Assembly (NCBI RefSeq): GCF_902652985.1
Contig: NC_047025.1
Location: 29,388,001-29,452,000 of the forward strand
Reading direction: 5' to 3'
Source: Pecten maximus
Taxonomy: Eukaryota
Length of the DNA: 64,000 nucleotides
The notes under the pieces were generated by a model. It had not been told where the DNA came from. It saw only the letters and a program-made list of their open reading frames with translations, and did no database searches. Shown piece by piece: positions 13,039-47,742 of this stretch (position 1 is the stretch's first letter; each line of letters starts with the position of its first letter). The translations under genes were made by a program, and so were the position numbers.

Positions 13039-14275
13039 CATTACCTTACACATCTCTGGAAGTGATTCTAGGGTAAACCTTACATACTCCGGAAGGGTGA
13101 CATTACCTTACACATCTCTGGAAGTGATTCTACGGTAAACCTTACATACTCCGGAAGGTTGGCATTACCTTACATACTCCGGAAGGTTGGCATGACCTTA
13201 CATACTCCGGAAGGTTGGCATTACCTTACACATCTGTGGAAGTGATTCTACGGTAAACCTTACATACTCCGGAAGGTTGGCATTACCTTACACATCTGTG
13301 GAAGTGATTCTAGGGTAAACCTTACATACTCCGGAAGGTTGGCATTACCTTACACATCTCTGGAAGTGATTCTACGGTAAACCTTACATACTCCGGAAGG
13401 TTGGCATTACCTTACACATCTGTGGAAGTGATTCTACGGTAAACCTTACATACTCCGGAAGGTTGGCATTACCTTACACATCTGTGGAAGTGATTCTAGG
13501 GTAAACCTTACATACTCCGGAAGGTTGGCATTACCTTACACATCTCTGGAAGTGATTCTAGGGTAAACCTTACATACTCCGGAAGGTTGGCATTACCTTA
13601 CACATCTCTGGAAGTGATTCTACGGTAAACCTTACATACTCCGGAAGGTTGGCATTACCTTACACATCTGTGGAAGTGATTCTACGGTAAACCTTACATA
13701 CTCCGGAAGGTTGGCATTACCTTACACATCTGTGGAAGTGATTCTAGGGTAAACCTTACATACTCCGGAAGGTTGGCATTACCTTACACATCTCTGGAAG
13801 TGATTCTACGGTAAACCTTACATACTCCGGAAGGTTGGCATTACCTTACACATCTGTGGAAGTGATTCTACGGTAAACCTTACATACTCCGGAAGGTTGG
13901 CATTACCTTACACATCTGTGGAAGTGATTCTACGGTAAACCTTACATACTCCGGAAGGTTGGCATTACCTTACACATCTCTGGAAGTGATTCTACGGTAA
14001 ACCTTACATACTCCGGAAGGTTGGCATTACCTTACACATCTCTGGAAGTGATTCTACGGTAAACCTTACATACTCCGGAAGGTTGGCATTACCTTACACA
14101 TCTGTGGAAGTGATTCTACGGTAAACCTTACATACTCCGGAAGGTTGGCATTACCTTACACATCTCTGGAAGTGATTCTACGGTAAACCTTACATACTCC
14201 GGAAGGTTGGCATTACCTTACACATCTCTGGAAGTGATTCTACGGTAAACCTTACATACTCTGGGAGGGTTAACC
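13039..14275. repeat. 62-bp minisatellite (~20 copies, 34+28 bp related subunits) just after the ANKS6 stop
   Basis: Unit CATTACCTTACACATCT(C/G)TGGAAGTGATTCTA(C/G)GGTAAACCTTACATACTCCGGAAGGTTGG. Confidence 0.95.
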
Positions 14276-23100: not shown

Positions 23101-26100
23101 AATTATAACCCAGAATGTTTGAACACTTACTGGAGCAAATACATGGGCTTCCTCATCAGCTGTGGTGCCTGATGATGACTGGAAAACAAAACTAATGTTA
23201 GTTATCACAGGGAAAATATTATAAATATAGACACAATTAACTACTAAAAGGTTGATTCAGTCAGTCAGTGCTAATACTACTCGGCTTGCACCAGGCCTCA
23301 CACAACTAAATATTTTCATATGTTATTACTATTGACTCCGTCCCCTCATTTGCTCATTTGAAGTTCCCGCCTTTTTACACCTGTAGTCCTATACATTCTA
23401 TACTCAGAAGGAGTGTAAATTTTCAAGTATGAATACATTACTGTTTATTCTCGTGTATAGGAAGTACGTATTCCATATATTGATTACAAAAGAAAATACC
23501 GGTAGCTATGAAGATCAGAAACACATTTTCGTTAGGGACTTGGTTCAGATGAAGAGCAGCTAATTGGCTGATTTAGTTGTGTAATTTAGCAGTACCTGTG
23601 GGGGGCTATGGGTACCTTATAATTTATGAAGATTAACCTATAAACTACACAGCCTTCATGTTCATGGTGAGTAAAATGTACTAGGAATATAATGTTTACC
23701 TCTAGAATCCACTCTTTTGCTTCCTGTATCACAGTGTGACCTGCATATGACCCGTTCTCTATCAACACCTGGAAATACAAAACTCACATGTTATACCTAA
23801 TGACAAATTACAACAACAAACAATGATCTCAGAAGACATGTATAAAAAGGTTTACAAGGTACTTAAAGAGGTCACGTTAGAAAAGGTCACAAGTACACAG
23901 AGGTCACATTAGAAAAGGTTACCAGGTACACAGAGGTCACATTAGAACAGGTTACCAGGTACACAGAGGTCACATTAGAAAAGGTTACCAGGTACACAGA
24001 GGTCACATTAGAAAAGGTTACCAGGTACACAGAGGTCACATTAGAACAGGTTACCAGGTACACAGAGGTCACATTAGAAAAGGTTACCAAGTACACAGAG
24101 GTCACGTTAGAAAAGGTTACCAGGTACACAGAGGTCACATTAGAACAGGTTACCAGGTACACAGAGGTCACATTAGAACAGGTTACCAGGTACACAGAGG
24201 TCACGTTAGAAAAGGTTACCAGGTACACAGAGGTCACATTAGAAAAGGTTACCAGGTACACAGAGGTCACATTAGAACAGGTTACCAGGTACACAGAGGT
24301 CACATTAGAAAAGGTTATCAGGTACACAAAGGTCACATTAGAAAAGGTTACCAGGTACACAGAGGTTGCACTAGAAAAGGTTACCAGGTACACAGAGGTC
24401 ACATTAGAAAAGGTTACCAGGTACACAGAGGTCACATTAGAAAAGGTTACCAGGTACACAGAGGTGGCACTAGAAAAGGTTACCAGGTACACAGAGGTCA
24501 CATTAGAAAAGGTTACCAGGTACACAGAGGTTGCACTAGAAAAGGTTACCAGGTACACAGAGGTCACGTTAGAAAAGGTTACCAGGTACACAGAGGTCAC
24601 GTTAGAAAAGGTTACCAGGTACACAGAGGTCACATTAGAAAAGGTTACCAGGTACACAGAGGTCACATTAGAAAAGGTTACCAGGTACACAGAGGTTGCA
24701 CTAGAAAAGGTTACCAGGTACACAGAGGTCACATTAGAAAAGGTTACCAGGTACACAGAGGTCACATTAGAAAAGGTTACCAGGTACATAGAGGTCACAT
24801 TAGGAAAAGTTACCAGGTACACAGAGGTCACATTAGAAAAGGTTACCAGGTACACAGAGGTCACATTAGAAAAGGTTACCAGGTACACAGAGGTCACATT
24901 AGAAAAGGTTACCAGGTACACAGAGGTCACATAAGAAAAGGTTACCAGGTATTCCGAGGTCATATTCCACAGGTGGTTAACTAGCTCTAGGCGGTCCAAC
25001 AGGCTGGGCTGCTCCAGTAAGGTGAAAGCACTCACAACTAATGGAAAAGGCAGCTGGAAACCAACCAAAGAACATATTATTGTACATAATATAGTGACTT
25101 TAAGGAGGAAATTATATTCATTGAGATGGAGATGTAGAAATATAGTTTCAATATTGCTCAAAAGTTTGACAAAAAGCCCATGGGTCTTAATGGTCAACCC
25201 TTTGCTGATAGTGTTTAGTTTTTAGATTTCAACACATCTGACCCCCATAACCTTGAAAGTAGGTCAAGGGTGTTATTTCAACAAGATTACTAGCCCTTCA
25301 TTCTAGCTTGCTACTGACCAAACATCATGACCCTGAACTTCTAGGTTATTGAGAAGATGTTATTTAAAATGTAAGTAAAATGATGTGACTCCTGTAACTT
25401 TGAAAGGAGGTAAAGGTCATTAATTTCAACAAACTTGGTAGCCCTTCATCCCAGCTTGCTACTGGACTAATATTATGACCCTTGGTCTCCTGGTCATTGA
25501 GAAGAATTTACCAGTATTTAAAGATTTTAATATGATGTTGTGACTCCTCAGGTCTGTTACTTACAGAGCTGTGTGAGGGGGCTTGTTACTTACAGAGCTG
25601 TGTGAGGGAGCTTGTTACTTACAGAGCAGTGTGGTGAGGGGCTTGTTACTTACAGAGCTGTGCGAGGGGGCTTGTTACTTACAGAGCTGTGTGAGGAGGC
25701 TTGTTACTTACAGAGCTGTGTGAGTAAGCTTGTTACTTACAGAGCAGTGTGGTGAGGGGGCTTGTAACTTACAGAGCTGTGTGAGGGGGCTTGTTACTTA
25801 CAGAGCTGTGCGAGGAGGCTTGTTACTTACAGAACTGTGTGAGTGAGCTTGTTACTTACAGAGCTGTGTGAGGGGGCTTATTACTTACAGAGCTGTGTGG
25901 GTGAGCTTGTTACTTACAGAGCTGTGTGAGGGGGCTTATTACTTACAGAGCTGTGTGAGGAGGCTTGTTACTTACAGAGCTGTGTGAGGGGGCTTATTAC
26001 TTACAGAGCTGTGTGAGTGAGATTGTTACTTACAGAGCTGTGTGAGGGGGCTTGTTACTTACAGAGCTGTGTGAGGGGACTTGTTACTTATAGAGCTGTG

Positions 26101-29100
26101 TGAGGGGGCTTGTTACAGAGCTGTGTGAGGGGGCTTGCTACTTACAGAGCTGTGTGAGGGGGCTTATTACTTACAGAACTGTGTGAGGAGGCTTGTTACT
26201 TACAGAGCTGTGTGAGTGAGCTTGTTACTTACAGAGCTGTGTGAGGGAGCTTATTACTTACAGAGCTGTGTGAGTGAGCTTGTTACTTACAGAGCTGTTT
26301 GCCGAGGCTTATTACTTACAGAGCTGTGTGAGGAGGCTGGTTACTTACAGAGCTGTGTGAAGGGGCTTATTACTTACAGAGCTGTGTGAGTGAGCTTGTT
26401 ACTTACAGAGATGTGTGAGGGAGCTTGTTACTTATAGAGCTGTGTGAGGGGGAATTGTTACTTACAGAGCTGTGTGAGGAGGCTTGTTACATACAGAGCT
26501 GTGTGAGGGGGCTTGTTACTTACAGAGCTGTGTGAGGGAGCTTGTTACTTACAGAGCTGTGTGAGGAGACTAGTTACTTACAGAGCTGTGTGAGTGAGCT
26601 TTTTACTTACAGAGCTGTGTGGTGAGGGGGCTTGTTACTTACAGAGCTGTGCGAGGGGGCTTGTTACTTACAGAGCTGTGTGAGGAGGCTTGTTACTTAC
26701 AGAGCTGTGTGAGTAAGCTTGTTACTTACATAGCAGTGTGGTGAGGGGGTTTGTTACTTACAGAGCTGTGCGAGGAGGCTTGTTACTTACAGAACTGTGT
26801 GAGTGAGCTTGTTACTTACAGAGCTGTGTGAGGGGGCTTATTACTTACAGAGCTGTGTGGGTGAGCTTGTTACTTACAGAGCTGTGTGAGGGGGCTTATT
26901 ACTTACAGAGCTGTGTGAGGAGGCTTGTTACTTACAGAGCTGTGTGAGGGGGCTTATTACTTACAGAGCTGTGTGAGGGGGCTTGTTACTTAAAGAGCTG
27001 TGTGAGGGGGCTTGTTACTTACAGAGCTGTGTGAGTGAGCTTGTTACTTACAGAGCTGTGTGAGTGAGCTTGTTACTTACAGAGCTGTGTGAGTGAGCTT
27101 GTTACTTACAGAGCTGTGTGAGGGGACTTGTTACTTACAGAGCTGTGTGAGGGGGCTTGTTACTTACAGAGCTGTGTGAGGGCGTTTGTTACTTATAGAG
27201 CTGTGTGAGGGCGTTTGTTACTTATAGAGCTGTGTGAGGAGGGTTTTTACTTACAGAGCTGTGTGAGTAAGCTTGTTACTTACAGAGCTGTGTGAGGGGG
27301 CTTGTTACTTACAGAACTGTGTGAGTGAGCTTGTTACTTACAGAGCTGTGTGAGGGAGCTTATTACTTACAGAGCTGTGTGAGTGAGCTTGTTACTTACA
27401 AAGCTGTTTGCGGAGGCTTATTACTTACAGAGCTGTGTGAGGAGGCTGGTTACTTACAGAGCTGTGTGAAGGGGCTTATTACTTACAGAGCTGTGTGAGT
27501 GAGCTTGTTACTTACAGAGCTGTGTGAGGGGGCTTATTACTTACAAAGCTGTGTGAGGGAGCTTGTTACTTACAGAGCTGTGTGAGGGGGCTTGTTACTT
27601 ACAGAGCTGTGTGAGTAAGCTTGTTACTTACAGAGCTGTGTGAGGGGACTAGTTACTAACAGAGCTGTGTTAGGGGACTTGTTGCTTACAGAGCTGTGTG
27701 AGGGAGCTTGTTACTTACAGAGCAGTGTGAGGGGGCTTGTTACTTATAGAGCTGTGTGAGTGAGCTTGTTACTTACAGAGCTGTGTGAGGGGGCTTGTTA
27801 CCTACAGAGCTGTGTGAGGAGGCTTGTTACTTACAGAGCTGTGTGAGGGAGCTTGTTACTTACAGAGCTGTGTTAGGGGACTTGTTACTTACAGAGCTGT
27901 GTGAGGGAGCTTGTTACTTACAGAGCTGTGTGAGGGGGCTTGTTACTTACAGAGCTGTGTGAGGGGGCTTGTTACTTACAGAGCTGTGTGAGGGGACTAG
28001 TTACTTACAGAGCTGTGTGAGTGAGCTTGTTACTAACAGAGCTGTGTGAGGGAGCTTGTTACTTACAGAGCAGTGTGGTGAGGGGGCTTGTTACTTAGAG
28101 CTGTGTGAGTAAGCTTGTTACTAACAGAGCTGTGTGAGGGGGCTTGTTACTTACAGAGCTGTGTGAGGGAGCTTGTTACTAACAGAGCTGTTTGAGGGAG
28201 CTTGTTACTTACAGAGCTGTGTGAGGGAGCTTGTTACTTACAGAGCTGTGTTAGGGGGCTTGTTACTTACAGAGCTGTGTGAGTGAGCTTGTTACTTACA
28301 GAGCTGTGTGAGGGGACTAGTTACTTACAGAGCTGTGTGAGGGAGCTTGTTACTTACAGAGCTGTGTGAGGGAGCTTGTTACTTACAGAGCTGTGTGAGG
28401 GAGCTTGTTACTAACACAGCTGTGTGAGGGGGCTTGTTACAGAGCTGTGTGAGGGCGCTTGTTACTTACAGAGCTATGTGAGGGGCCCTGTTACTTACAG
28501 AGCTGTGTGAGGGGGCTTGTTACTTACAGAGCTGTGTGAGGGGGCTTGTTACTTACAGAGCTGTGTGAGGGGGCTTATTACATACAGAGCTGTGTGAGGG
28601 AGCTTGTTACTTACAGAGCTGTGTGAGGGAGCTTGTTACTTACAGAGCTGTGTGAGGGAGCTTGTTACTTACAGAGCTGTTTGGGAAGGGGGGGGGGGGC
28701 TTATTACTTACAGAGCTGTGTGAGGGAGCTTATTACTTACAGAGCTGTGTGAGGGAGCTTATTACTTACAGAGCTGTGTGAGGGAGGCTTGTCTCTGAAA
28801 TAAACTCCAGGTATTACCATCTTTTTTTGCTCCTCTCCCTCTGTAAAAACAAAACACCATTCCTGTAGCTAGTATCAATACTTCCTATATAACAAAACTA
28901 TATTATTATTAAAGATAACAACATGCATTATTACTGAGAGACATCATCTTTACCAGGGATTAATAAATATTGATTATATTTATTGTATTGTTTATCAAAT
29001 GGTAGGTTCCTAATCCACACATGCTTCCTTTAAGTAGAGCATCACAGTGTAACAAATAATGTAACTGTAAATGGAGCGGGTTACTGATGCTTGTTGAGTG

Positions 29101-32100
29101 TTAAAAAGTGTTTCTCACTCAGCTTCAGGTGGTATGGCCATGAATTAGCATGCTGGAGACCAGGGTGAATTCCTGTCAGGGCACTTGTTTTCCCTGTTCT
29201 TTCACATTCAAACAACTAAAAACCCATGGTACTAGGTATGAAGAGTCTCGAGTTGAGCTTTTATGTTAAGAAAAACAGGAGGAGTATTGTACAGTAAAAG
29301 GAACGGTCAACGGTGCTTGTACATAGTGTTAAATAAAGTCTCTGTCACACAGCTGACGGAGTATGTTTCTTTAGCTCGGGATTCCTTGAAGTACCCCCCT
29401 GGTGCCCCAGTATTTGTGGTATCATGCAGTTAACTGTGTAGTAAACCCTTCTGGTGCCAAAGGATTTGTGATAACATGTGGTAAACCCTGTAATACACCC
29501 CAGTGGTTACCGCAAACTTGTGATGACTGTGTAGTATACCCCACTGGTGCCCCTAGACTTGTGATGACAGTGTACTATACCCCACTGGTGCCCCAAGACT
29601 TGTGATGACTGTGCACTATACCCCACTGGTGCCCCTAGACTTGTGATGACTGTATAGTATACCCCACTGGTGCCCCTAGACTTGTGATGACTGTGTAGTA
29701 TACCCCACTGGTGCCCCTAGACTTGTGATGACTGTGTAGTATACCCCACTGGTGCCCCTAGACTTGTGAAGTCTTACCCTGTAGTAATAGCCTGGCCAGA
29801 GTTGACATGTCTGTAGCTGGATCCTGACAATAGAACTGTGTTATAGCTGACCCCCAAACAGTGTTACCGGCCCTGGAGATATAGATCAGAATTACATATT
29901 ATGGAATATTATAAAACATCACAGGCTAAAAAGTACAAAAAGGCCCAAAGTACATGCATACACAGAAATAAATCAAAAGATAATTATCACTTTCTTCTAT
30001 GAGTTTCCTTTTTTGTTGCTCCATTCCGTGCAAGATTAGGCCTACTTAAAATCAAAAAAATATTGTATAATATTTTGTGTTTTTATACAAATTTAAATCT
30101 CAAAGCTTTGTATTTAAGTACTTAAATACCTCTTTGATACTACTAAACAGCCCTAAAACTAGATTTGAAGGAAATAATAGTGAGGTTTTCCCCAAACTCT
30201 ATCTTTATCATGAGTACAACCTGTACTCACCACACTGCTGTTCCCAGTCCGCTCCCTACATTATACATCGCACTAGGCTGGAAGTCTGGATTACGTTTCT
30301 CAATCTACAGCACAAAACAGTGAGGTAGTTGTTATATTACATATATCAAAATATAACACATGTCTATATCAATGTGTTTCTAGATATATATTAACTACAT
30401 TCATACAAGTAATATATTTCAAATGCTATGCTAATAAAAGTGAACAGTAGAGACTTGATTGACTGGTGTAGGAGGTGATACCTGGTATATAAGTGACTCG
30501 TGTAGGAAGTGATACCTGGTATATAAGTGACTCGTGTAGGAGGTGATGCCTGGTACATAAGTGACTGGTGTAGGAGGTGATACCTGGTATATAAGTGACT
30601 CGTGTAGGAGGTGATACCTGGTATATAAGTGACTCGTGTAGGAGGTGATACCTGGTATATAAGTGACTCGTGTAGGAGGTGATACCTGGTATATAAGTGA
30701 CTCGTGTAGGACGTGATACCTGGTATATAAGTGACTCGTGTAGGAGGTGATATCTGGTATATAAGTGACTCGTGTAGGAGGTGAAACCTGGTACATAAGT
30801 GACTCGTGTAGGAGGTGATACCTGGTATATAAGTGACTCGTGTAGGAGGTTATACCTGTTATATAAGTGACTCGTGTAGGAGGTGATACCTGGTATATAA
30901 GTGACTCGTGTAGGAGTTGATACCTGGTATATAAGTGACTCGTGTAGGACGTGATACCTGGTATATAAGTGACTCGTGTAGGAGGTGATACCTGGTATAT
31001 AAGTGACTCGTGTAGGAGGTGAAACCTGGTATATAAGTGACTGGTGTAGGAGGTGATACCTGGTATATAAGAGAGTCGTGTAGGAGGTGATACCTGGTAT
31101 ATAACTGTCTCCTGTAGGAGGTGATACCTGGTATATAAGAGAGTCGTGTAGGACGTGATACCTGGTATATAACTGTCTCCTGTAGGAGGTGATACCTGGT
31201 ATATAAGTGACTCGTGTAGGAGGTTATACCTGTTATATAAGTGACTCGTGTAGGAGGTGATACCTGGTATATAAGAGAGTCGTGTAGGACGTGATACCTG
31301 GTATATAACTGTCTCCTGTAGGAGGTGATACCTGGTATATAAGTGACTCGTGTAGGAGGTTATACCTGGTATATAAGTGACTCGTGTAGGAGGTGAAACC
31401 TGGTATATAAGTGACTGGTGTAGGAGGTGATACCTGGTATATAAGAGAGTCGTGTAGGAGGTGATACCTGGTATATAACTGTCTCCTGTAGGAGGTGATA
31501 CCTGGTATATAAGTGACTCGTGTAGGAGGTTATACCTGTTATATAAGTGACTCGTGTAGGACGTGATACCTGGTATATAAGTGACTCGTGTAGGAGGTGA
31601 TACCTGGTATATAAGTGACTCGTGTAGGACGTGATACCTGGTATATAAGTGACTGGTGTAGGAGGTGATACCTGGTATATAAGTGACTCGTGTAGGAGGT
31701 GATACCTGGTATATAAGTGACTCGTGTAGGAGGTGATACCTGGTATATAAGTGACTGGTGTAGGAGGTGATACCTGGTATATAAGAGAGTCGTGTAGGAG
31801 GTGATACCTGGTATATAACTGTCTCCTGTAGGAGGTGATACCTGGTATATAAGAGAGTCGTGTAGGACGTGATACCTGGTATATAACTGTCTCCTGTAGG
31901 AGGTTATACCTGGTATATAAGTGACTGGTGTAGGAGGTGATACCTGGTATATAGGTGACTCGTGTAGGAGGTGATACCTGGTATATAAGTGACTCGTGTA
32001 GGTGGTGATACCTGGTATATAAGTGACTCGTGTAGGAGGTGATACCTGGTACATAAGTGACTCGTGTAGGAGGTGATACCTGGTATATAAGTGACTCGTG

Positions 32101-35100
32101 TAGGAGGTGATACCTGGTATATAAGTGACTCGTGTAGGACGTGATACCTGGTATATAAGTGACTCGTGTAGGACGTGATACCTGGTATATAAGTGACTCG
32201 TGTAGGAGGTGATACCTGGTATATAAATAATAAGTGACTCGTGTAGGTGGTGATACCTGGTACATAAGTGACTCGTGTAGGAGGTGATACCTGGTACATA
32301 AGTGACTCGTGTAGGAGGTGATACCTGGTATATAAGTGACTCGTGTAGGAGGTGATACCTGGTACATAAGTGACTCGTGTAGGAGGTGATACCTGGTATA
32401 TAAGTGACTCGTGTAGGAGGTGATACCTGGTATATAAGTGACTCGTGTAGGAGGTTATACCTGGTATATAAGTGACTCGTGTAGGAGGTGATACCTGGTA
32501 TATAAGTGACTCGTGTAGGAGTTGATACCTGGTATATAAGTGACTCGTGTAGGAGGTGATACCTGGTATATAAGTGACTCGTGTAGGAAGTGATACCTGG
32601 TATATAAGTGACTCGTGTAGGAGGTGATGCCTGGTACATAAGTGACTGGTGTAGGAGGTGATACCTGGTATATAAGTGACTCGTGTAGGAGGTGATACCT
32701 GGTATATAAGTGACTCGTGTAGGAGGTGATACCTGGTATATAAGTGACTCGTGTAGGAGGTGATACCTGGTATATAAGTGACTCGTGTAGGACGTGATAC
32801 CTGGTATATAAGTGACTCGTGTAGGAGGTGATATCTGGTATATAAGTGACTCGTGTAGGAGGTGAAACCTGGTACATAAGTGACTCGTGTAGGAGGTGAT
32901 ACCTGGTATATAAGTGACTCGTGTAGGAGGTTATACCTGTTATATAAGTGACTCGTGTAGGAGGTGATACCTGGTATATAAGTGACTCGTGTAGGAGTTG
33001 ATACCTGGTATATAAGTGACTCGTGTAGGACGTGATACCTGGTATATAAGTGACTGGTGTAGGAGGTGATACCTGGTATATAAGTGACTCGTGTAGGAGG
33101 TGATACCTGGTATATAAGTGACTCGTGTAGGAGGTGAAACCTGGTATATAAGTGACTGGTGTAGGAGGTGATACCTGGTATATAAGAGAGTCGTGTAGGA
33201 GGTGATACCTGGTATATAACTGTCTCCTGTAGGAGGTGATACCTGGTATATAAGAGAGTCGTGTAGGACGTGATACCTGGTATATAACTGTCTCCTGTAG
33301 GAGGTGATACCTGGTATATAAGTGACTCGTGTAGGAGGTTATACCTGTTATATAAGTGACTCGTGTAGGAGGTGATACCTGGTATATAAGAGAGTCGTGT
33401 AGGACGTGATACCTGGTATATAACTGTCTCCTGTAGGAGGTGATACCTGGTATATAAGTGACTCGTGTAGGAGGTTATACCTGGTATATAAGTGACTCGT
33501 GTAGGAGGTGAAACCTGGTATATAAGTGACTGGTGTAGGAGGTGATACCTGGTATATAAGAGAGTCGTGTAGGAGGTGATACCTGGTATATAACTGTCTC
33601 CTGTAGGAGGTGATACCTGGTATATAAGTGACTCGTGTAGGAGGTTATACCTGTTATATAAGTGACTCGTGTAGGACGTGATACCTGGTATATAAGTGAC
33701 TCGTGTAGGAGTTGATACCTGGTATATAAGTGACTCGTGTAGGACGTGATACCTGGTATATAAGTGACTGGTGTAGGAGGTGATACCTGGTATATAAGTG
33801 ACTCGTGTAGGAGGTGATACCTGGTATATAAGTGACTCGTGTAGGAGGTGAAACCTGGTATATAAGTGACTGGTGTAGGAGGTGATACCTGGTATATAAG
33901 AGAGTCGTGTAGGAGGTGATACCTGGTATATAACTGTCTCCTGTAGGAGGTGATACCTGGTATATAAGAGAGTCGTGTAGGACGTGATACCTGGTATATA
34001 ACTGTCTCCTGTAGGAGGTTATACCTGGTATATAAGTGACTGGTGTAGGAGGTGATACCTGGTATATAGGTGACTCGTGTAGGAGGTGATACCTGGTATA
34101 TAAGTGACTCGTGTAGGTGGTGATACCTGGTATATAAGTGACTCGTGTAGGAGGTGATACCTGGTACATAAGTGACTCGTGTAGGAGGTGATACCTGGTA
34201 TATAAGTGACTCGTGTAGGAGGTGATACCTGGTATATAAGTGACTCGTGTAGGACGTGATACCTGGTATATAAGTGACTCGTGTAGGACGTGATACCTGG
34301 TATATAAGTGACTCGTGTAGGAGGTGATACCTGGTATATAAATAATAAGTGACTCGTGTAGGTGGTGATACCTGGTACATAAGTGACTCGTGTAGGAGGT
34401 GATACCTGGTACATAAGTGACTCGTGTAGGAGGTGATACCTGGTATATAAGTGACTCGTGTAGGAGGTGATACCTGGTATATAAGTGACTCGTGTAGGAG
34501 GTGATACCTGGTATATAAGTGACTCGTGTAGGAGGTGATACCTGGTATATAAGTGACTCGTGTAGGAGGTTATACCTGGTATATAAGTGACTCGTGTAGG
34601 AGGTGATACCTGGTATATAAGTGACTCGTGTAGGAGTTGATACCTGGTATATAAGTGACTCGTGTAGGAGGTGATACCTGGTATATAAGTGACTCGTGTA
34701 GGACGTGATACCTGGTATATAAGTGACTCGTGTAGGACGTGATACCTGGTATATAAGTGACTCGTGTAGGAGGTGATACCTGGTATATAAATAATAAGTG
34801 ACTCGTGTAGGTGGTGATACCTGGTACATAAGTGACTCGTGTAGGAGGTGATACCTGGTACATAAGTGACTCGTGTAGGAGGTGATACCTGGTATATAAG
34901 TGACTCGTGTAGGAGGTGATACCTGGTACATAAGTGACTCGTGTAGGAGGTGATACCTGGTATATAAGTGACTCGTGTAGGAGGTGATACCTGGTATATA
35001 AGTGACTCGTGTAGGAGGTTATACCTGGTATATAAGTGACTCGTGTAGGAGGTGATACCTGGTATATAAGTGACTCGTGTAGGAGTTGATACCTGGTATA

Positions 35101-38100
35101 TAAGTGACTCGTGTAGGAGGTGATACCTGGTATATAAGTGACTCGTGTAGGACGTGATACCTGGTATATAAGTGACTGGTGTAGGAGGTGATACCTGGTA
35201 TATAAGTGACTCGTGTAGGACGTGATACCTGGTATATAAGTGACTCGTGTAGGACGTGATACCTGGTATATAAGTGGTATACCTGGTATATAAGTGACTC
35301 GTGTAGGAGGTGATACCTGGTATATAAGTGTCTGGTGTAGGTGGTGATACCTGGTATATAAGTGACTCGTGTAGGAGGTGATACCTGGTATATACATTAT
35401 GTACCTTGATGGATATGTTGATGTATTGTACCTACCTCATTTAGACATGTCCGGATGATACTATAGTTCTTGGCCAAGCGAGCAACGAGATACACAATAG
35501 TGGTATAACCTGTGTAGCTAACAAAGAAAGTCACAGAATTCATGATTAGTATATTGAATACCACAACTATAAATGTTTGATATAGCTATACAACCTTACC
35601 AGATACCAAGGCACATGTATGTCTAAATCTGGATGTAACACTGGATATAATGTTTTGGTCAGGATTTTTAATGCTTTGCATAAATCCACAATTTTGTTTC
35701 CATACGAAATGTACATGCATCAAAAAATAAAACATTCAAAATAACTGGTAAGATATAAAACATCTCAGATTGTATTTTGACTTTTCTTTTTAAGTTGTCA
35801 AAATATCTTGTGATTATCACTCTTTAAAATAATTGATAATTTTGAGTTTTATATATAGCTACTATAAATCAAAGCAATATAGCCATCTAAAGCAGTTCAC
35901 AAAGTATCATCTGTGGTTAGTGGGCCTTTATCAACTAGACAATATCTTTCTCACCTCCCTGGGGAGCATACAGCTGGAGCTGCCATTTCAGCACAAACAG
36001 CTTACACATGACATTTCTTACACTGCCCTATCACCTACTTCTTGTTTTCTTCATGAATGTTTATGATAGTATATGTAACAAGTTTAAAGTGTTTCAACCA
36101 CAACAACTTGAATCTTACTCGACAGACTTCTGTAAGTGTGTAGTGTGTCGGAGAATCTGCTGTATTTTACTTTTCCTGTTCAAAAGGAAAACTTTCCGTT
36201 CCTCCTCACTCATAGTGGATGGGTCTTTTTTATCTGAAACACAAACGATAACAATTGATAAATGCTTCTTCATGACAACAAGTCTTCATTCTATCACAGT
36301 GTCAATTCTGTTTACATTACAAGGAGTTACTTCCCTTCATTTCAATTTATTGCAACAATGTACAAAATATATTTATCTCTACTAAATATATATGCTTTGG
36401 ACATTTTGTTTTACATAATAGCCTACATCTCTGTACTGTATTTTATTTTGCAGATATATTCTTTACCCAGGATTTGGTTTCCTGGTTCCAAAGATCATTC
36501 AAATCAAACATTCAATGAAAACATTCAATATCACTTCCCAGTCTATATTTTGTCTATTGGGTAATAAGTTCTGCCTCCAGTTCTGCTCCATACTTAAGTT
36601 ATACAATATACTGGTACCTATCATGGAATGAGGTTATATACATGTATTACTTATATAAATGATGCGTTTACTTTTCTTTTCCAATTTCTGATTGATCACA
36701 GCCACTTTATCTCGCAACACCTCTGGTTCTGGTGGGGGATGACGACCCATGATGCTAGCGTCAAACTTCTTAGCTTCCTCTGCTGTAGATCTCTTTCCAT
36801 ACTCTGTAACATTGTGTTAAGGTAATTTACTATACATCTGCAATTAATGTTCATACACACATGACATTAGAACCTTGTCATCAACTTCCTTTTGTGTGTC
36901 ATTTTTCATATATTCTATATTTTACCAATTAACAAAAATTTGATTTCCTTGCTACCTTTAACAAGTGCAATCAATGATTGCGAAAGCTCACCGGCAGCAG
37001 CAATCACACTATGCATTCATTTTTTATGTATGTATAAGCATGTCATTTTGAAATTGTATGTCACATAATATCGCTCCTAGACCTCTAAACCAAATAAGAA
37101 GGGTGTGGACTTACAAGCTTTCCAAAACTAACCCTTAAAAACTTTAAAGTGGGTTTTGGTGCCAAAAAAGTTAAGTCCACAAAATGGTAAAATGCGAAAA
37201 AATCACAATTTTTTTCTGCAGGATTTTGCCATAACATCACTCCTAGACCTCTAATGAATGTATAAACCAAATTAGAAGGGCATGAGGTATATACTTTTGG
37301 AATACCAGCTTTCCAAAAACTTCCCCAAAAACTTTAAAGTTTTGGGGTGGGACGCAGACGCCGGGGTGACAGCATTAGCTCTCGATTACTCGTTACCGGT
37401 GAGCTAAAAATGTTGTCAAAAAAGGAGATGATTTCTAAAAAAAAAAGTTATTGGAAGCAAACTATCTTGATCATGCAACTCGGAACTCATCCTGGAAGTC
37501 TTTCAACCAATGAATGGTCGGGTGGCAGTGCTAACACACTTGCCTTTCACCTAGGTGGCTGGGGCTCAAATCCCTGATCGGAAATATAAGCTGATATAAC
37601 TAGTTTCGCAATTGTCGAAAAATAACTATATATCTAAATAAAGCTGACATTTTTCTTCCAATAAAGGGTCCTTAGTGAGGTTATTTCATATTGAAGCCAA
37701 TTTCTCCAATCACTAATTTTCTTCTCTAAAAGAAGCAAGAAGAATGCCATCTCTATATATAGCCCTGCAGCTACAAGGTTATAGAGAAGAAAAATAAAAC
37801 ATTAGTTACATAAGTACTCACTTTGTGTTACAATATCTACAGCATTCACTAACTTAGTAGGTAAAGGAAGTAGCTTATTTTGTGCCAAACGTCCTGGATG
37901 GTTTCTTCTTTTAATATTGTCCATTTCCATTTTTTCCAGGACTTCCTCTTCAATGTTAATATCATGTGGAAACTGAAGTTCATCCTGAGCATACTGTCAA
38001 ACATACCAAACAAAAACACATTATTACAGAACACAGAAATCACATGACTCTCATTCCAGGTGACCTATTGTTTTCAAAAACATTGCCATATGATGTACTA

Positions 38101-38628: not shown

Positions 38629-41600
38629 ATGCAATGTGTAACTTGTTCTGCTCCTGTAAATATTGCTGTAATTAAATATTGTACGTATTGGCGAAACTAA
38701 TTAACAACTTCTGATTTTATATCTGATTAGCTGACATACATCATTAGCTGCAATTTAGTGCTTTTAATTGTAATATTTTGCCATGACTGGTTAATTATGT
38801 CTGTAGTTTATTTAGAAACAATTTTTAATACGTACATGACGTAAACACATGTAAAGGAATATTCATGGATAAGTCTTTAAAAGAAAGGGTATTTTTATGC
38901 GGATTGTTGATTATAAGGTTCCGCAACTAATGAACTATGTGTTTATATATAGTAGGCCTATGTGTTTGTCAATTTTGTACAATGTTATGCAACATATTTT
39001 TAGGGGGAAAGAGAGATGAGACACTGATACTCCCAGCCAACTCATCAGTCAGTGTAACTCTTCATCAGGATCAGGTAACACAATACAGTCAAACCTGCGA
39101 ATTAAGACCACTCAAAGGACTAAAGAGAAATACCTTTATAGGCAGGTGACTATATATTAATAGAAAGAGAAAACCTGGGACTTACAAACTCTAGATGGAT
39201 ACTCTAACCATTTGAGCTACCTTGCCACCGGCAATCAGCCCACTCTCGCTCTGCTGACAATGGATTTTGTTACATTAGTAACTGAAGCATGTGGCCTTTA
39301 TAGACAGAGTTTCTTTATATATATCTATCATATAGTCAGAGTTTCTTTATATTTAGACGAATTACCTTTATAGACAGGTTGTTGCATTGTATGCTATCAG
39401 ACAATATTGCCAGTATGGAATTATTTGCCACTGTGAACCCATTTCTAAATATGATTATTATATCCCCTGCAACAACGTTAAGGGGGTAAACTGGAATCAG
39501 GTTTTCTGTCCATCCGTCCATCTGTCGTCCCATAATGGTTGTCCATACAACTCCTACTAAAGTACTGTTCCGATTTCAACAGAACCTAGCATGTAAAATC
39601 AGTCGGCATCCCAACTTTTTTTTACGATAATGCATTTTTCAAAATGGCCGCCAACTTTGATTGGTTGAGGCTTGTCCGGAGAGCTCATACTAAAGTACTG
39701 TTCCGATTTCAACAAAACTTGGCACATGTATAATCAGTACAACATGTAGTTTTGCATCCCAACTTTTTTTTACGATATTGCATTTTTCAAAATGGCCATC
39801 GACTTCTGATTGGTTGAGGCTTGTCCAGACAACTCCTACTAAAGTACTGTTCTTATTTCAAAAAACTTGGCATGTATAATCAGTACAACAGGTAGTTGTG
39901 CATCCAGACTATTTTTTACGATATTGCGTTTTTCAAAATGGCCGCCTACTTCTGATTAGATGAGGCTTGTCCAGACAACTCCTACTAAAGTGCTGTTCCA
40001 ATTTTAACAAAAATTGGCATGTAAAATCAGTACAACACGTAGTTGTGCATCTTCTCTAGCCAAGGCTTCTGATTACGTTTCACTACACGAATGTGGAGTG
40101 AAACGTAATCAGAAGCCTTTATGGCTAGCAAAGATGGTTAGTTGTGCATCCCAACTTTTTTTTTACGATAATGCCTATTTCAAAATGGCACCTTCTGATT
40201 CGTTGAGGCTTTTCCGGACAAGTCCTACTAAAGTACAAAACAATTAAAACTTGGCTTGAAGTTATGCCCAACTAAAATAAACACAAGTCAATTACCTCCC
40301 CTTATATATATATAACAAAAACATAATTTAAGTTTTGCCATTTAATGAAATAATGAAATGAGATAATAAAGTACATGTATACAAAAAGCCCTTTCACCCC
40401 AGATCAAATGTCTCGAATATTAAAAGTCCATCAATATTCACTAATACCTATATATGGAAGGAGGTGAAAGGGCTATACACAGATTGCAATACATTTTAAT
40501 ATTATAATATCCTTCACTTTCTGCACTCACAAGCAGCCATTCATTCCTAGACACATAATATTTATCAGATTGAACAATAGTTGTATAGTTTAGTTATTTA
40601 CATGTAAATGCAATTAATTCAATATGTTAAATACATTATTGCCAATTAAGCAACTGAAAAATACTGTACAAAGTTTATGCGACGCCTTAGCAAAAATTAC
40701 CTTAACTTATTTATTTAAACCATTGAGGGATCCTCATTAATTTCATACAAATTTAGTCTCAAATAGGGAGGGAAAGGTGGGTTTTTCAAGAAAGGAGATA
40801 CAATTGTATCTGTCCTGACACCTCAGTATTCTAAATGGAAGTGAGAGAAAAAATTGGAAGGCGCTTCTCCAAAAAGGTGCCTAAAAGCTGGCCACTGAAA
40901 ACTTTATGCTAATGAGGGGTAAAAATATCCAAATTATTGAAATTAACAATGTTATCAGGAGTATTAAATATTTGTTACCGAACCGATGTACAATTGCAGT
41001 ATTGGATGGTGTATATCATGTATATTTATGAATTGGAACTGGTTTTGGATCGATTGGTGTCTTAATATTGTCATTCATAAAATGTAATAACTGACTGGAT
41101 TAGATATGATTACACTCACCAATAGCCTACTCAACTATAGACGCCCACGGGGTATAAGTTATCCCTTGGGATACAACTCTTGTTGTTTCAATTATGTAGT
41201 GTAAAAGATAAACAGTTGTATTAACCGTTATCTCTTTAACATGTCTACACAGCTTCAAGCACAGACCAGTGTTGCAGCCAGTTGTCATTTTGAGAAGGAC
41301 AGGATATGGCTCAATGGACAGTGAGTTGGGTTTTATTAATCCTCCTGAACATTACTTTGATAGTTATTTTTAGAACATAGACATTTGAGTTCTGGATCCA
41401 GCTTCGGCTGTAGGCTCACCTTTTTGAAAACCGATATCTGTTAGTATTTGACTTGTCAAAAGTTTGAATCCGACATGATCACTTTAAAATAATGATTGTT
41501 GTATTAGGTCTGTTTACAGTTGCTTTAATTGGTTAAAATAAAGAATAAAAAGGGGTAAACTTTGATATCAGGATGTAGAATAAGTATCAACCAATTAAAG

Positions 41601-44600
41601 GTCTTCTTTGCCATCCTATATGAGATGTTGAATAGGAGAGAAGTTATAACACACTATATACTAGTAGTTATTTCCTAGCAGTGTGTATTTCCTGTAAGTT
41701 ATAACACACTATATACTATTAGTTATTTCCTAGCAGTGTGTATTTGCTGTAAGTTATAATACACTATATATACTAGTAGTTATTTCCTAGCAGTGTGTAT
41801 TTGCTGTAAGATATAATACACTATACATATTAGTAGTTATTTCCTAGCAGTGTGTATTTGCTGTAAGTTATAACACACTATATACTAGTAGTTATTTCCT
41901 AGCAGTGTGTATTTGCTGTAAGTTATAACACACTATATATACTAGTAGTTATTTCCTAGCAGTGTGTATTTGCTGTAAGTTATAACACACTATACATGTA
42001 TATACTAGTAGTTATTTTCTAGCAGTGTGTATTTGCTGTAAGTTATAACACACTATATATACTAGTAGTTATTTCCTAGCAGTGTGTATTTGCTGTAAGT
42101 TATAACACACTATACATGTATATACTAGTAGTTATTTCCTAGCAGTGTGTATTTGCTGTAAGTTATAACACACTATATATACTAGTAGTTATTTCCTAGC
42201 AGTGTGTATTTGCTGTAAGTTATAATACACTATATATACTAGTAGTTATTTCCTAGCAGTGTGTATTTGCTGTAAGTTATAACACACTATATATACTAGT
42301 AGTTATTTCCTAGCAGTGTGTATTTGCTGTAAGTTATAATACACTATATATACTAGTAGTTATTTCCTAGCAGTGTGTATTTGCTCTAAGATATAACACA
42401 CTATATACTAGTAGTTATTTCCTAGCAGTGTGTATTTGCTCTAAGATATAACACACTATATATACTAGTAGTTATTTCCTAGCAGTGTGTGTTTGCTGTA
42501 GAAAGAGATGACAGCCAATAAATGAAATGGAAGGCCTGATAGACAATTTGGTGAAAATATAAATTGTTTTTTGTTACAGAGAACAGTCTATTGACAACCC
42601 AAGGATCCAGAATGTCATCAAGGAGAGTAAGTAATAAATAGACAGTGTCTACATAGTATTGTTACATTGTTCGTATTCCACTATCGTCAGATGGTGAACT
42701 GTTCAAATCTGTGGTCCTCTATCAACCATTCAAAGATAATTTTGATATCTATTTCTTGAAAAGAACTGCTGGTAGATGAATCTTTCTCATATTTTCAGAT
42801 AAAAACAGATGGTCAAAATGCTGCTGTCCTGGATTTTATCATTCAAAGATTATTTTTGTTATTTCTCAGAAGTTATTACAGGAATTCCTCTTTAATTGCA
42901 TATTTAGGTACCTCTTGGTCCCACATAAACAATAATCATAGCTTATATAATTTATAGTCAAAAGAAGAGCAAGGAAACAAAAGGCAGGTAACCGGGACAA
43001 TGCTGCTGAGAAATTGAACTGGAAAATCCATATCTGTTCCAAGAATAACTTCCCTACAGCAGCAGGACTAGCCTCATCAGCAGCGGGATATGCCTGTCTG
43101 GGTTTGTTAATCTGTGTTCAAACTTAAAACATTAGTTTCATTTACATTATCTCATATGAAAAGAACACTTACATAAGTTTGATATTCAGAAACTATTTGG
43201 TAAAGTAGATTTCCTTTTAATACTTTCTCCATTTGTTTTTAATTTTACAAAATAATGCACAGATTATATGTACGGTGGGTTTGTCTTCTGGAATACCAAT
43301 TTTTGTTGGTGTCAGTTTGGCTTTTTGTCTTCATAGCAATTGAAGTAAGTCTTGGATGCACAATAGCATTAATTCAATGAAACAATCCAAAGTCTCCATG
43401 GTAACAAAAATTGTATAGGTTGATGAATATTTGACTCTCACTTTAAAACCAGAATGGTTATCTCTGTCAGTGTTCTGTCAGTTCTCAGGCATCGTGGTAC
43501 AGAAAAAAATAATAAAATAAGAGATCTGATTTTTTTAGATTAGACAGTAAGAAATGACAAGATCAAAGAATGACTTTGATTTTAAGCACCTGATTGTATT
43601 GAATGTTGTTTGTTTTAGTGTATGCCCTCCAGTGTCTTTATCAGATAGATGGGGACATCACTGCAATCGCAAGGTACTGTAACATTTTACATCCTGTCAT
43701 AACAAGACATCTAATACTCAAAGTTAAAGCATACTACAAAATCAGACATCAAAATACAAATTGAAATTTGATTACTAAAACTGATAGTTAACATAACACC
43801 TGTTAATCACGTGATTGACATGGTGTTCACAGTAGCAGCTGATTGTGCTGTAGACTTCTGTGATAAAATTATTCATATTCACATGGAAAAAAGACAGTGT
43901 TTTTCAGGAATATTATTTTTAACTGGTCTACAAAGTTTTATTTTTTTCTCAGTTTGTGTCCGAGAAACAGAATCTATAATATTGATTACAGAAGTGATAT
44001 CAGGATGTCACAGTTTTATGAATATTTAATGTATTAACAACAAATTTAAGGTAATTAGATTATGTGTATTACTCTTAATGGTTTCTAATTGATCACATGT
44101 ACCATACCTTGTGTGTGATAAAGTAAGGTATTGTATACGTGTATTCTGTATCACCTATAGTTGCCTAGCTCTTTGAGAGTACCACTTTTGATAGTAAGTT
44201 GTTGCATTCTGAAATTGTGTAAATTTATTTTGAAGTTTCTTATATATATTGAGGACTAGAATTTCTCACAGAACTCTGGCTTGTTTGATAGCCTTTTCCT
44301 AATACTACACTGTTAGAAATCTATAAAGTTGATTTATTTATATATTGTTATTTTTCAAATAAATTATCAACCACAAATGACCCAGTCTGGTTATGTATCT
44401 TTATACTTGTACATGCAAAATAACTTTCTAGTTGATTTTATGTTTTAGGCGTGGATCTGGGAGTGCCTGTCGGAGTGTACATGGAGGGTTTGTTATGTGG
44501 GACAAGGGACAGAAACACGATGGTACAGACTCAATAGCTAGACAGATACAGCCACATACACACTGGTCAGATCTACGGGTACTTATACTGGTGGTAAGTC

Positions 44601-47600
44601 TCACTGGTCAGATCTATGGGTATTTATACTGGTGTTAGACTCACTGGTCAGATCTACGGGTACTGATACTGGTGGTAAGTCTCACTGGTCAGATCTATGG
44701 GTATTTATACTGGTGTTAGACTCACTGGTCAGATCTACGGGTACTTATACTGGTGTTAGACTCACTGGTCAGATCTACGGGTACTTATACTGGTGTTAGA
44801 CTCACTGGTCAGATCTACGGGTACTTATACTGGTGGTAAGTCTCACTGGTCAGATCTACGGGTACTTATACTGGTGGTAAGTCACACACCAGACTCATTG
44901 GTAAGATCTACGGGTACTTATACTGGTGGTGAGTCTCACACCAGACTCACTGGTCAGATCTACGGGTACTTATACTGGTGGTAAGTCTCACACCAGACTC
45001 ACTGATCAGATCTACGGGTACTTATACTGGTGGTAAGTCTCACACCAGACTCACTGGTCAGTTCTACGGGTACTTATACTGGTGGTCAGTCTCACACCAG
45101 ACTCACTGGTCAGATCTACATGTACTTATACTGGTGGTCAGTCTCATACCAGACTCACTGGTCAGTTCTACGGGTACTTATACTGGTGGTAAGTCTCACA
45201 CCAGACTCACTGGTCAGATCTACGGGTACTTATACTGGTGGTAAGTCTCACACCAGACTCACTGGTCAGATCTATGGGTACTCATACTGGTGGTCAGTCT
45301 CACAACAGACTCACTGGTCAGTTGTACGGGTACTTATACTGGTGGTCAGTCTCACACCAGACTCACTGGTCAGATCTGCGGGTACTTATACTGGTGGTCA
45401 GTCTCACACCAGACTCACTGGTCAGTTCTACGGGTACTTATACTGGTGGTAAGTCTCACCCCAGACTCACTGGTCAGATCTACGGGTACTTTAACTGGTG
45501 GTCAGTCTCACACCAGACTCACTGGTCAGATCTATGGGTACTCATACTGGTGGTCAGTCTCACAACAGACTCACTGGTCAGATCTACAGGTACTTATACT
45601 GGTGGTCAGTCTCACACCAGACTCACTGGTCAGTTCTAATGGGAAGGCTGATTCTCTTTGTCCTGTCTTGCAAGAAATGAAAACAAGATATTTAGGTCAA
45701 ATCCTTTGTACTTTGATGAACTAAAATGACCATGGTCCTTGTCTGAGTGAAGGAAAATGTACGGTATACATTGTCAGGTGAATGAGCAGAAGAAACACAC
45801 GGGGAGCACAGAAGGGATGCAGGTTACCATGGAAACCAGTGAGTTACTGAAGGAGAGAATCCAGAGTCTTCCTAACAAGACAGAACAGATAACTCAGGCA
45901 ATCTGTGACAGAGATTTCAAAACATTTGCAGAAATAACAATGAAGGTAAATATTCCTTTTGTTTATACACTTACTGTTCAATGTGGAGCTTCAACAGTAT
46001 TATACTACATTTCTTTCATGAAAAAAATACGGATATACAAAAATGTATTAATAATAGACGTCTCTCAGAATTTTACCGTCAGGGGAGTAGCATGTGTGTT
46101 GGCCTCAGTATATCTGGTGATTTACAGAAATTTGTTGTCTGTTTTGACTGACAGGACAGTAACCAGATGCATGCCTGTTGTCTGGACACCTACCCACCAA
46201 TCTCCTACCTAACTGACGTATCCAGGAGGATCATTCAGCTGGTCCACTGTTTTAACAGGAAATATCAGGAAGTCAAGGTCAGTGTATGTCAGGAAGTCAA
46301 GGTCAGTGTATGTCAGGAAGCCAAGCTCAGCATGTGTAAAAAAGTCAAGGTCAGTGTATGTCAGGAAGCCAAGGTCAGTGTGTATCACAAAGTCAAGGTC
46401 AGGATGTCAGTGTCAGTGTATGTAAGAGAGTCAAGGTCAGTGTATGTAAGATCAAGGTCAGCATGTATCATGTTAATGTCAGTGTATGTCAGGAAGTCAA
46501 ATTCAGTGTATATCAGTTGGTCATGGTCAGTGTATGGCGATAAGTCAAGGTCAGTGTATGTAAGAAAGTCAAGGACAGTGTATGGCGATAAGTCAAGGTC
46601 AGTGTTTGTCAGAAAGTCAAGGTCAGTGTATGTGATGGAGTCAAGGTCAGTGTATGTCAGTAGGTCAAGGTCAGCATATGTCATAAAATCAAGGTCAGTG
46701 TATGTCAGGAAATCAAAGTCATTGTCGATCATTAGAGAGCTGAGAGGTGAAGTTATCTGGTTAGAGTTATAGGGAGTGGAACACTTCTAAGTCCTTACCC
46801 ACTATGATGACAGCCATCCATTGGTTTGTTTATATGTTCAAATATTATATTTGCTCAGTTTAAACAAGAATTGCAAACATCATAAGTTCATTATTCCTAT
46901 TCTGTTTGTGAGTTGAATGTAATAAACAGGCTTTCTTTAATAGGAATTATCTTATGTAATTAAGAGGTTGCTTGTATTCGAATAATCTTACTTTAATTAA
47001 CAGGTTGTCTGTAATCAGAATTATCTGGTGTAATTAACAGGTTGTCTGTAATCAGAATTATCTGGTGTAATTAACAGGTTGTCTGTAATCAGAATTATCT
47101 GGTGTAATTAACAGGTTGGGTACACTTTTGATGCTGGTCCAAATGCGTGTCTGTTCCTCCTAAAGAAAGATGTCCAAAAGTTTCTTCATCTTGTGAAACA
47201 CTTTTTCCCTCCAACGAGAGAAGACAAAGATTTCATTCGAGGAAACACTGCAGAGTTAATGGAGACTGAATCAGATGTAAGTATAATGTATAACTTTGTA
47301 AACAGGATATCAGAAGTACAGCTATGTTAATGTCCAAAATTTTATTTTCTTCCTTTTGAAATCAGATTTCACTTCTAGCATTACAAACTTTTCCTGTTGT
47401 AGAGTTTGGTATTTTACACATATAGATTGGTATAAATAATGAAAATAAATTTCTATGTATTTATATCTGGTGCATAATTAATATCAAATTACCTGTGACA
47501 TATTTACTTGTGTATTAGGATATTACACAAACTGATGACCTGATCTGCAGTCACATCCATCAATCAATATCGAATATATTTTGATTCAGGACAGTGAAGA

Positions 47601-47742
47601 AGATCTGAGTTACTTCCCCTTTGATCCAATGGATGACAGTTTGAAATATATTATATACACAATGCCAGGCCCCGGCCCTCAGGAACTACCTTCTGATCAA
47701 AGTCTCCTGGATGAGGATGGCTTGCCAAGGAAACGGTCTTGA
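38629..47742 (+). CDS. MVD: Diphosphomevalonate decarboxylase, 11 exons, ~395 aa
   Basis: Exons 38629-38680, 39004-39074, 41253-41320, 42580-42626, 42958-43101, 43619-43673, 44449-44593, 45778-45945, 46155-46277, 47115-47276, 47590-47742 (1188 nt, in frame). Motifs [35 protein letters not shown] (GHMP ATP loop), [33 protein letters not shown]. Confidence 0.96.
39455..40260 (+). mobile_element. Helentron/HINE-type element with ~140-bp tandem units, interrupted by a MITE
   Basis: TTATTATATCCCC start, (GTCC) microsatellite, about five units containing CTCCTACTAAAGTACTGTTCC...TTTTCAAAATGGCC. Confidence 0.75.
40048..40136. mobile_element. Palindromic MITE (family also at 49753-49821)
   Basis: CATCTT..CTAGCCAAGGCTTCTGATTACGTTTCAC / GTGAAACGTAATCAGAAGCC...GGCTAGC.AAGATG; host TAGTTGTG is duplicated on both sides. 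Confidence 0.8.
41641..42500. repeat. ~57-bp tandem repeat (~15 copies) in MVD intron 3
   Basis: Unit CTGTAAGTTATAACACACTATATATACTAGTAGTTATTTCCTAGCAGTGTGTATTTG. Confidence 0.95.
44561..45637 (+). repeat. 40-52-bp minisatellite (~22 copies) built from the MVD exon 7 end and donor
   Basis: Unit CACTGGTCAGATCTACGGGTACTTATACTGGTG|GT(A/C)AGTCTCACACCAGACT; the first copy encodes [11 protein letters not shown]. Confidence 0.95.
46262..46722 (+). repeat. 24-bp minisatellite (~19 copies) built from the MVD exon 9 end and donor
   Basis: Unit TCAGGAAGTCAAG|GTCAGTGTATG; the true junction is at 46277/46278. Confidence 0.92.
46920..47118 (+). repeat. 37-bp tandem repeat (~5 copies) built from the MVD exon 10 acceptor
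   Basis: Unit TAATTAACAG|GTTGTCTGTAATCAGAATTATCTGGTG; the last copy is the real acceptor at 47114/47115. Confidence 0.88.

What the first reader, a model, noticed from the sequence alone, without database searches (positions are those of the whole stretch)
44561..45637. MVD exon 7 end (11 codons plus donor) amplified ~22 times, with unit growth from 40 to 52 bp
The unit contains 33 nt of coding sequence ([11 protein letters not shown]) plus the donor. Proximal copies are 40-41 bp, some with the donor altered to GTTAGA; distal copies gained ACACCAGACTC and alternate GTAAGT/GTCAGT. It is the clearest case of coding sequence turning into satellite.
Basis: seen in the sequence. Interest (0 to 1): 0.7.

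Follow-up and report, generated by a model that had tools for sequence, protein, structure and literature searches.

The report
Repeated splice donor in MVD intron
The last 11 codons of one exon of a sterol-pathway gene, together with its splice signal, sit in 22 back-to-back copies that fill most of the next intron, yet the assembled RNA uses the first signal, so this is an ordinary new example of a repeat type already described in human and lancelet genes.

Summary
The array is real: 22 full units and a 15-nt stub (44561-45638), seven of 40-41 bp then fifteen of 52 bp, each starting with the last 33 nt of MVD exon 7. The unit occurs only here and the exon is conserved in solved MVD structures, so the repeat came from the exon. 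RNA contigs join the first donor to exon 8; none shows a downstream donor, and any such use would stop at residue 209 of 395. This is a known kind: amphioxus 'mirages' and the human F7, CBS and 6-16 minisatellites. It is not exceptional here: 9 of 223 predicted donors elsewhere in the genome carry such arrays, and this scan has reported several on other DNA of the genome. 'Growth from 40 to 52 bp' is not shown; two deletions from a 52-bp unit need fewer steps. It is a single-locus minisatellite, not satellite DNA, and no coding sequence was lost.

The parts
38629..47742 (+). MVD (diphosphomevalonate decarboxylase) coding span, 11 exons, 395 aa
   Evidence: Exon model with GT..AG introns translates without internal stop; Pfam PF22700 and PF18376; 5 of 10 introns (4-8) seen in RNA contigs
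44449..44593 (+). Coding exon 7; its last 33 nt (44561-44593) are the core of the repeat unit
   Evidence: Aligns over 48 of 48 residues to chain 3d4j_A, E 2e-17; single match in the genome
44594..44599 (+). Authentic donor GTAAGT (copy 1)
   Evidence: RNA contigs leave the stretch here and continue into exon 8 in 4 of 4 runs
44561..44843 (+). Short-unit block, units 1-7 (41/40 bp); includes an 81-bp dimer repeat (units 1-2 and 3-4); 4 dead donors, 2 intact decoys
44636..44638 (+). In-frame TAG in unit 2, reached by any transcript that uses a downstream donor (stop at residue 209)
   Evidence: 21 of 21 downstream positions
44844..45623 (+). Long-unit block, units 8-22 (52 bp); 15 GT decoy donors; trace of a 5-unit (260-bp) duplication
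   Evidence: units 10/15 and 16/21 identical, 12/17 and 14/19 differ by one base
45624..45638 (+). Terminal partial unit, 15 nt; either the microhomology that seeded the duplication or the stub of a truncated copy
   Evidence: 15 of 15 match to unit 12, 14 of 15 to the exon copy
45639..45777 (+). Unique 139-nt tail of intron 7 with the acceptor; the array makes up 1045 of the intron's 1184 nt
45778..45945 (+). Exon 8
   Evidence: RNA joints on both sides in 4 of 4 runs; MDD_C match
46265..46725 (+). Second junction array in the same gene: 13 nt of exon 9 plus donor GTCAGT, 24-bp unit, about 20 degenerate copies
46918..47118 (+). Third junction array: acceptor of exon 10 plus 4 exon nt, 37-bp unit, about 5 copies

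Best explanation
A tandem minisatellite built from the MVD exon 7/intron 7 boundary fills most of intron 7; the RNA contigs use the first donor, and the array likely arose by local duplication and is likely tolerated as neutral intron filler. Shown: anatomy, uniqueness, exon origin, use of the first donor in the assembled RNA, and a stop at residue 209 for every downstream donor. Inferred: a segment spanning the donor was duplicated by slippage or unequal exchange, which leaves copy 1 with an intact exon and donor; later unequal exchange expanded it in blocks (81-bp dimer, 260-bp pentamer); the 52-bp unit probably came first (about 60-65%) and the 41- and 40-bp units were cut from it by two deletions. 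The decoys likely stay silent because the donor nearest the exon wins, as shown for human F7 (PMC1557585), and rare mis-spliced RNA would likely be cleared by nonsense-mediated decay (general knowledge, not tested here).
For: Unit structure. DNA search gave 9 of 9 matches and the 23-nt pattern 14 of 14 matches inside the array, reversed-pattern control 0. Exon conserved and single-copy. Seven runs laid: in 5 (X2, X3, X6, X10, X20; four study labels) one contig runs from exon 7 through the copy-1 core into exon 8; on the distal stretch the joined contigs carry the copy-1 base at 45588, not the copy-22 base, in 4 of 4 runs. No spacer-bearing contig joins exon 8 in the tables shown. 21 of 21 downstream positions give a stop at residue 209. 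Genome sample: 9 of 223 predicted donors (4.0%, bootstrap 1.8-6.7%) and 5 of 218 predicted acceptors start or end such an array. 186 of 195 copies in 13 arrays keep GT, so silence does not need dead donors. Arrays cover 24% of this window.
Against: Only Logan contigs were available; they drop rare forms, and in X1 and X19 (apparently one data set) the contig breaks inside the shared core, so decoy use is not excluded there. In human 6-16 and CBS two proximal pseudo-sites are used (PMC1557585, Introduction), so leakage to copy 3 is plausible. Donor-spanning arrays are 2.7 times the deep-intron rate (95% interval 1.1-4.9), a mild excess over a flat neutral expectation. The direction 52->41/40 has no outgroup, and the higher core diversity of long units (2.23 vs 1.40) is not significant (p 0.13). 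Six of 7 runs are not on record as RNA (guessed or unlabelled); their GT..AG joints show spliced RNA.
Confidence: 0.85

Rival explanations
1. The array acts as a tuning knob: proximal decoy donors are used at a low but real rate, make a stop-bearing RNA, and copy number lowers MVD output, as reported for the human CBS repeat.
For: Copies 3 and 7 have donors identical to the real one (score 11.1); all downstream use is unproductive; repeat-bearing contigs exist in X1 and X3; CBS repeat number is reported to lower activity (passage in PMC5188458).
Against: No decoy junction in any table; the repeat contigs (depth 3-11) come with intron 5 and 6 contigs of like depth, which points to unspliced RNA or DNA; X6 and X20 show no repeat contig on the distal stretch.
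Confidence: 0.1
2. One reading: a 41-bp unit came first, gave the 40-bp unit, and the 52-bp unit grew from them by a templated insertion.
For: The unit next to the real exon is 41 bp; the 52-bp spacer region is close to the reverse complement of the 40-bp junction (14 of 16, read), so a template switch could supply the extra bases.
Against: Needs about five events against three for shrinkage (my count); the 11-nt difference lies exactly between two CTCAC words, the usual mark of a slippage deletion; the unit at the unique 3' flank is 52 bp.
Confidence: 0.35
3. Selection has been disarming the decoys, by mutating the donor (TT, GTCAGT) or hiding it in a hairpin in the 52-bp unit.
For: 13 of 21 copies have a weaker or dead donor; the +3 change is the most widespread variant in the long block; a stem can form over the donor in 52-bp units (-8.9 to -12.7 kcal/mol locally).
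Against: 8 of 21 decoys are identical to the real donor, including the nearest live one; the real donor is predicted to be as paired as the decoys (unpaired probability 0.0002 vs 0-0.004 for GT copies); folding z-scores are -0.3 to -1.6 for 4 of 4 array stretches; 186 of 195 copies in the sampled arrays keep GT.
Confidence: 0.1
4. The array, or its copy number, is an assembly artefact.
For: No DNA run was laid; copy number of short arrays can be mis-assembled.
Against: Independent contigs hold the 81-bp dimer, the 52-bp unit, a 115-nt exact match over units 20-22 and the array's 3' exit (X1, X3); units carry private variants in patterned blocks.
Confidence: 0.02

Closest known systems
Amphioxus 'mirages' (globins BflGb6 and BflGb9, Adh3); PMC3087553, passages read
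   Same: Minisatellite-like tandem copies of an exon-intron boundary; many but not all copies keep the splice signal; normal splicing is not disturbed; unit within the reported 10-72 bp (Adh3) range; both donor and acceptor sides occur in one gene.
   Different: A different animal (earlier scan notes call it a scallop; not checked here); two unit lengths in one array; allele-length variation, reported for mirages, was not tested.
Human F7 intron 7 37-bp VNTR; PMC1557585, abstract and Introduction read
   Same: First monomer spans the exon-intron boundary; identical pseudo-donors follow; only the most upstream donor is used.
   Different: F7 copies 4 exon nt and has 5-9 units; here 33 exon nt and 22 units, 13 of 21 with a changed donor. 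The upstream-first rule was shown by mutation for F7 and is only inferred here.
Human CBS intron 13 31-bp VNTR and interferon-inducible 6-16 intron 2 minisatellite (seen second-hand in PMC1557585 Introduction and a passage of PMC5188458; the primary papers were not read)
   Same: 15-25 pseudo-donors after the real one, a similar size of array.
   Different: There two proximal pseudo-sites are also used; no such use was seen here, within the limits of contigs.

Membership tests
Junction-spanning minisatellite ('mirage' / F7-type VNTR) | First unit of a tandem array spans a real exon-intron boundary | tested here: met
   33 exon nt plus donor; donor used in RNA contigs
Junction-spanning minisatellite ('mirage' / F7-type VNTR) | Minisatellite-size unit derived from the gene's own boundary, confined to the locus | tested here: met
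   40-52 bp units; all matches inside the array; exon conserved
Junction-spanning minisatellite ('mirage' / F7-type VNTR) | Copies keep splice signals, many but not all | tested here: met
   17 of 21 copies keep GT; 8 of 21 identical to the real donor
Junction-spanning minisatellite ('mirage' / F7-type VNTR) | Regular splicing persists from the authentic site | tested here: met
   One contig from exon 7 to exon 8 in 5 of 7 runs; broken at the shared core in the other 2. Rare forms are not visible.
Junction-spanning minisatellite ('mirage' / F7-type VNTR) | Copy number varies among alleles or cells | not tested
Junction-spanning minisatellite ('mirage' / F7-type VNTR) | Turnover by unequal exchange, with shared variants in blocks | tested here: inconclusive
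   81-bp dimer and a lag-5 minimum of 2.6 differences against 3.4-3.9 at the other seven lags; no significance test was run
Satellite DNA proper | Very long or multi-locus arrays (definition recalled) | tested here: not met
   1.08 kb at one locus; unassembled arrays cannot be seen
Intron gain by tandem duplication (Rogers model as described in PMC3087553) | A copy is recruited as exon, making a new intron | tested here: not met
   No copy is included in the spliced contigs; simple downstream donor use gives a stop at residue 209

The most novel reading that the evidence does not exclude
Intron ends in this genome are hot spots of minisatellite birth (two to three times the deep-intron rate), so several thousand genes carry rows of live decoy donors; the genome would then be a natural, genome-wide test of 'first donor wins' outside mammals, and arrays such as this one could tune gene output by allele length through stop-bearing mis-spliced RNA.
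Probability: 0.2. Interest if true: 0.5.

Novelty: new member of a known kind. Interest (0 to 1): 0.17.

Why it matters
As a single locus it matters little: it is one more junction-spanning minisatellite with no sign of an effect on MVD. Its value is as a clean case within a genome-wide habit. About 1 in 25 sampled donors has such an array and most copies keep GT, so rules of donor choice worked out on a few human genes could be tested on many loci at once with raw RNA reads. It also warns that position along an array does not give its history: the short units next to the exon are probably the younger ones.

Tried and rejected
Hairpin masking of decoys: rejected, the real donor is predicted to be as paired as the copies and the array folds no better than shuffles. 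Systematic killing of decoy donors: not seen, 186 of 195 copies keep GT in 13 of 16 arrays examined; 2 gave no copies with the anchors used and 1 row (13073) was set one base off and dropped; the MVD intron 7 row caught only 2 of its 21 copies because of the spacer length change. Unit dispersed in the genome: rejected. Junction-specific duplication mechanism: not supported, array starts are also enriched 15-95 nt inside introns (2.0 and 3.0 times), and the acceptor excess at the junction is not significant (1.8, interval 0.4-3.9). Age from diversity: p 0.13. A unit tree was not built: copy 1 equals the consensus core and gives no root. Orthologous intron: the genome tool holds no relatives of this genome. 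The top 30 kinase loci and 13 AMP-binding loci were mostly long single-exon matches and were not used. Regions without RNA cover are no evidence. Literature searches that found no mollusc or bivalve report of this repeat type: 4 hits, none on it by title and abstract start; 0 hits; one search listed two amphioxus-related papers. The library lacks most subscription journals; the primary 6-16 paper was not held. No supplements were read.

Full report
Observation. Splitting 44561-45638 at the unit start gives 22 full units and a partial 23rd. Units 1-7 are 41, 40, 41, 40, 40, 40 and 41 bp; units 8-22 are 52 bp. Each begins with the last 33 nt of MVD coding exon 7. An 11-exon model gives 395 aa without internal stops, and 5 of 6 MVD exons scanned match Pfam MVD-like_N or MDD_C. 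Of the 21 copies after the real donor, 8 read GTAAGT, 1 GTGAGT, 8 GTCAGT and 4 have lost the GT. The array supplies 1045 of the 1184 nt of intron 7.

Origin. A DNA search of the genome with the first four units gave 9 matches, all in the array. A 23-nt pattern across the 52-bp unit junction, one mismatch allowed, gave 14 matches, all in the array, and 0 for the reversed control. Exon 7 has one match in the genome and aligns over all 48 residues to chain 3d4j_A, where [11 protein letters not shown] faces HWPELRVLILV. The exon is therefore old coding sequence and the repeat was copied from it.

Splicing. Twenty of 24 listed runs hold part of the region; seven were laid, all Logan contigs. In X2, X3, X6, X10 and X20 one contig runs from exon 7 through the copy-1 core into exon 8. 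In X1 and X19, whose tables are identical and which are probably one data set, the contig breaks inside the 33-nt core because repeat-bearing contigs are present, so those two cannot tell copy 1 from copies with the same core. On the distal stretch the joined contigs carry the copy-1 base at 45588 in 4 of 4 runs, and no contig with spacer sequence joins exon 8 (14 and 5 pieces were not shown in the two tables). Repeat-bearing contigs at depth 3-11 come with intron 5 and 6 contigs of like depth, which fits unspliced RNA or DNA. Contigs drop rare forms, so low-level decoy use stays open. Any downstream donor would meet an in-frame TAG at 44636-44638 and stop at residue 209 (21 of 21).

History of the units. 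52->41 is an exact 11-nt deletion between two CTCAC words; 52->40 is a 12-nt deletion with one substitution; 41->40 needs one deletion and two substitutions. By my count shrinkage takes three events and growth about five. Against this, the unit beside the real exon is 41 bp, the 52-bp spacer resembles the reverse complement of the 40-bp junction (14 of 16), and the greater core diversity of long units (2.23 vs 1.40) is not significant (p 0.13 over 54,264 regroupings). I put shrinkage at 60-65%. Block duplication is visible: an 81-bp dimer and a five-unit repeat, with units 10/15 and 16/21 identical. The 15-nt stub matches unit 12 exactly and may be the seeding microhomology or a truncated copy.

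How common. I sampled exons of myosin, CCT, aldehyde dehydrogenase, kinesin, SLC6 and kinase genes across the genome: 124 of 137 ready-made loci (13 dropped as duplicates, unplaced copies or multi-exon matches) and 134 further matches, 258 in all. Junctions were predicted with a matrix trained on the same set, not checked by RNA; 223 donors and 218 acceptors passed the score and duplicate filters. With at least two further copies and tandem spacing, 9 of 223 donors (4.0%, bootstrap 1.8-6.7%) and 5 of 218 acceptors (2.3%) sit in the edge unit of an array; with one copy enough, 12 and 8. Against positions 100-1000 nt into introns the ratio is 2.7 (1.1-4.9) for donors and 1.8 (0.4-3.9) for acceptors, but positions 15-95 nt inside introns are enriched as much (2.0 and 3.0), so the excess is not specific to the junction. 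Arrays cover 24% of this window. MVD itself has two more junction arrays, both in intron 9. Most decoys stay live: 186 of 195 copies in 13 arrays keep GT (three arrays left out, see Tried and rejected).

Mechanisms rejected. A stem can form over the donor in 52-bp units, but the real donor is predicted to be equally paired and four array stretches fold with z-scores of -0.3 to -1.6. Sequence decay alone cannot explain silence, since copies 3 and 7 are identical to the real donor.

What is known. PMC1557585 (abstract and Introduction read) describes the human F7 intron 7 minisatellite, whose first unit spans the exon boundary and whose pseudo-donors stay silent because the most upstream site is chosen; it lists 6-16, CBS, lamin B2 and PDGF as further cases, with two proximal pseudo-sites used in 6-16 and CBS. 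PMC3087553 (five passages read) describes amphioxus 'mirages', tandem copies of exon-intron boundaries that do not disturb normal splicing. PMC5188458 (passages) mentions the CBS repeat. PMC10078293 (passages) added nothing on this type. Four searches for a mollusc or general report of this type found none, in a library that lacks most subscription journals. Earlier notes of this scan report the same kind at four other places in this genome; I took the term 'mirage' from them and checked it in the paper. They call the animal a scallop, which I did not test.

Verdict. A real, well-formed junction-spanning minisatellite: a new member of a known kind, likely neutral. Interest 0.17.

Noticed in passing
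window 25555-28792, minus strand: A 29-bp unit, about 111 copies, that starts 23 nt before a GTAAGT at about 28770; the upstream frame reads EGEEQKKMVIPGVYFRDKPPSHSS after a plausible acceptor, so this is likely a much larger donor-spanning array (85 of 88 scored copies keep GT). Exon not checked against RNA; the donor scores low in my matrix.
   Followed up: partly
window 13039-14268, plus strand: A 62-bp unit, about 20 copies, that likely spans a weak donor (AGG|GTAAAC near 13072) of an open-frame exon without a Pfam match; the two halves of the unit resemble each other, as if it were an old dimer.
   Followed up: partly
window 9503-9741, plus strand: A degenerate 61-bp array whose first unit holds 15 nt of a predicted Ser/Thr-rich exon and a donor at 9517 (score 10.3).
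   Followed up: partly
window 30460-35394, minus strand: A 34-bp unit, about 141 copies (4.9 kb), that starts roughly 45 nt inside an intron after a likely exon and contains CAG|GTATCA; near a junction but apparently not spanning it.
   Followed up: no
window 41641-42500: A 57-bp array, 15 copies, inside MVD intron 3, ending about 80 nt before the exon 4 acceptor; it does not span a junction.
   Followed up: no
L099, L228, L231, L288 (donors) and L075, L105, L229 (acceptors): Junction-spanning arrays of 12-32 counted copies at predicted junctions of kinesin, SLC6, CCT, aldehyde dehydrogenase and kinase genes; one kinase exon (L229) has one on each side.
   Followed up: partly
window 42956-42987, run X10: A low-depth contig (2.9) joins 28 unrelated letters to the start of MVD exon 5; may be an adapter, chimera or another organism.
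   Followed up: no
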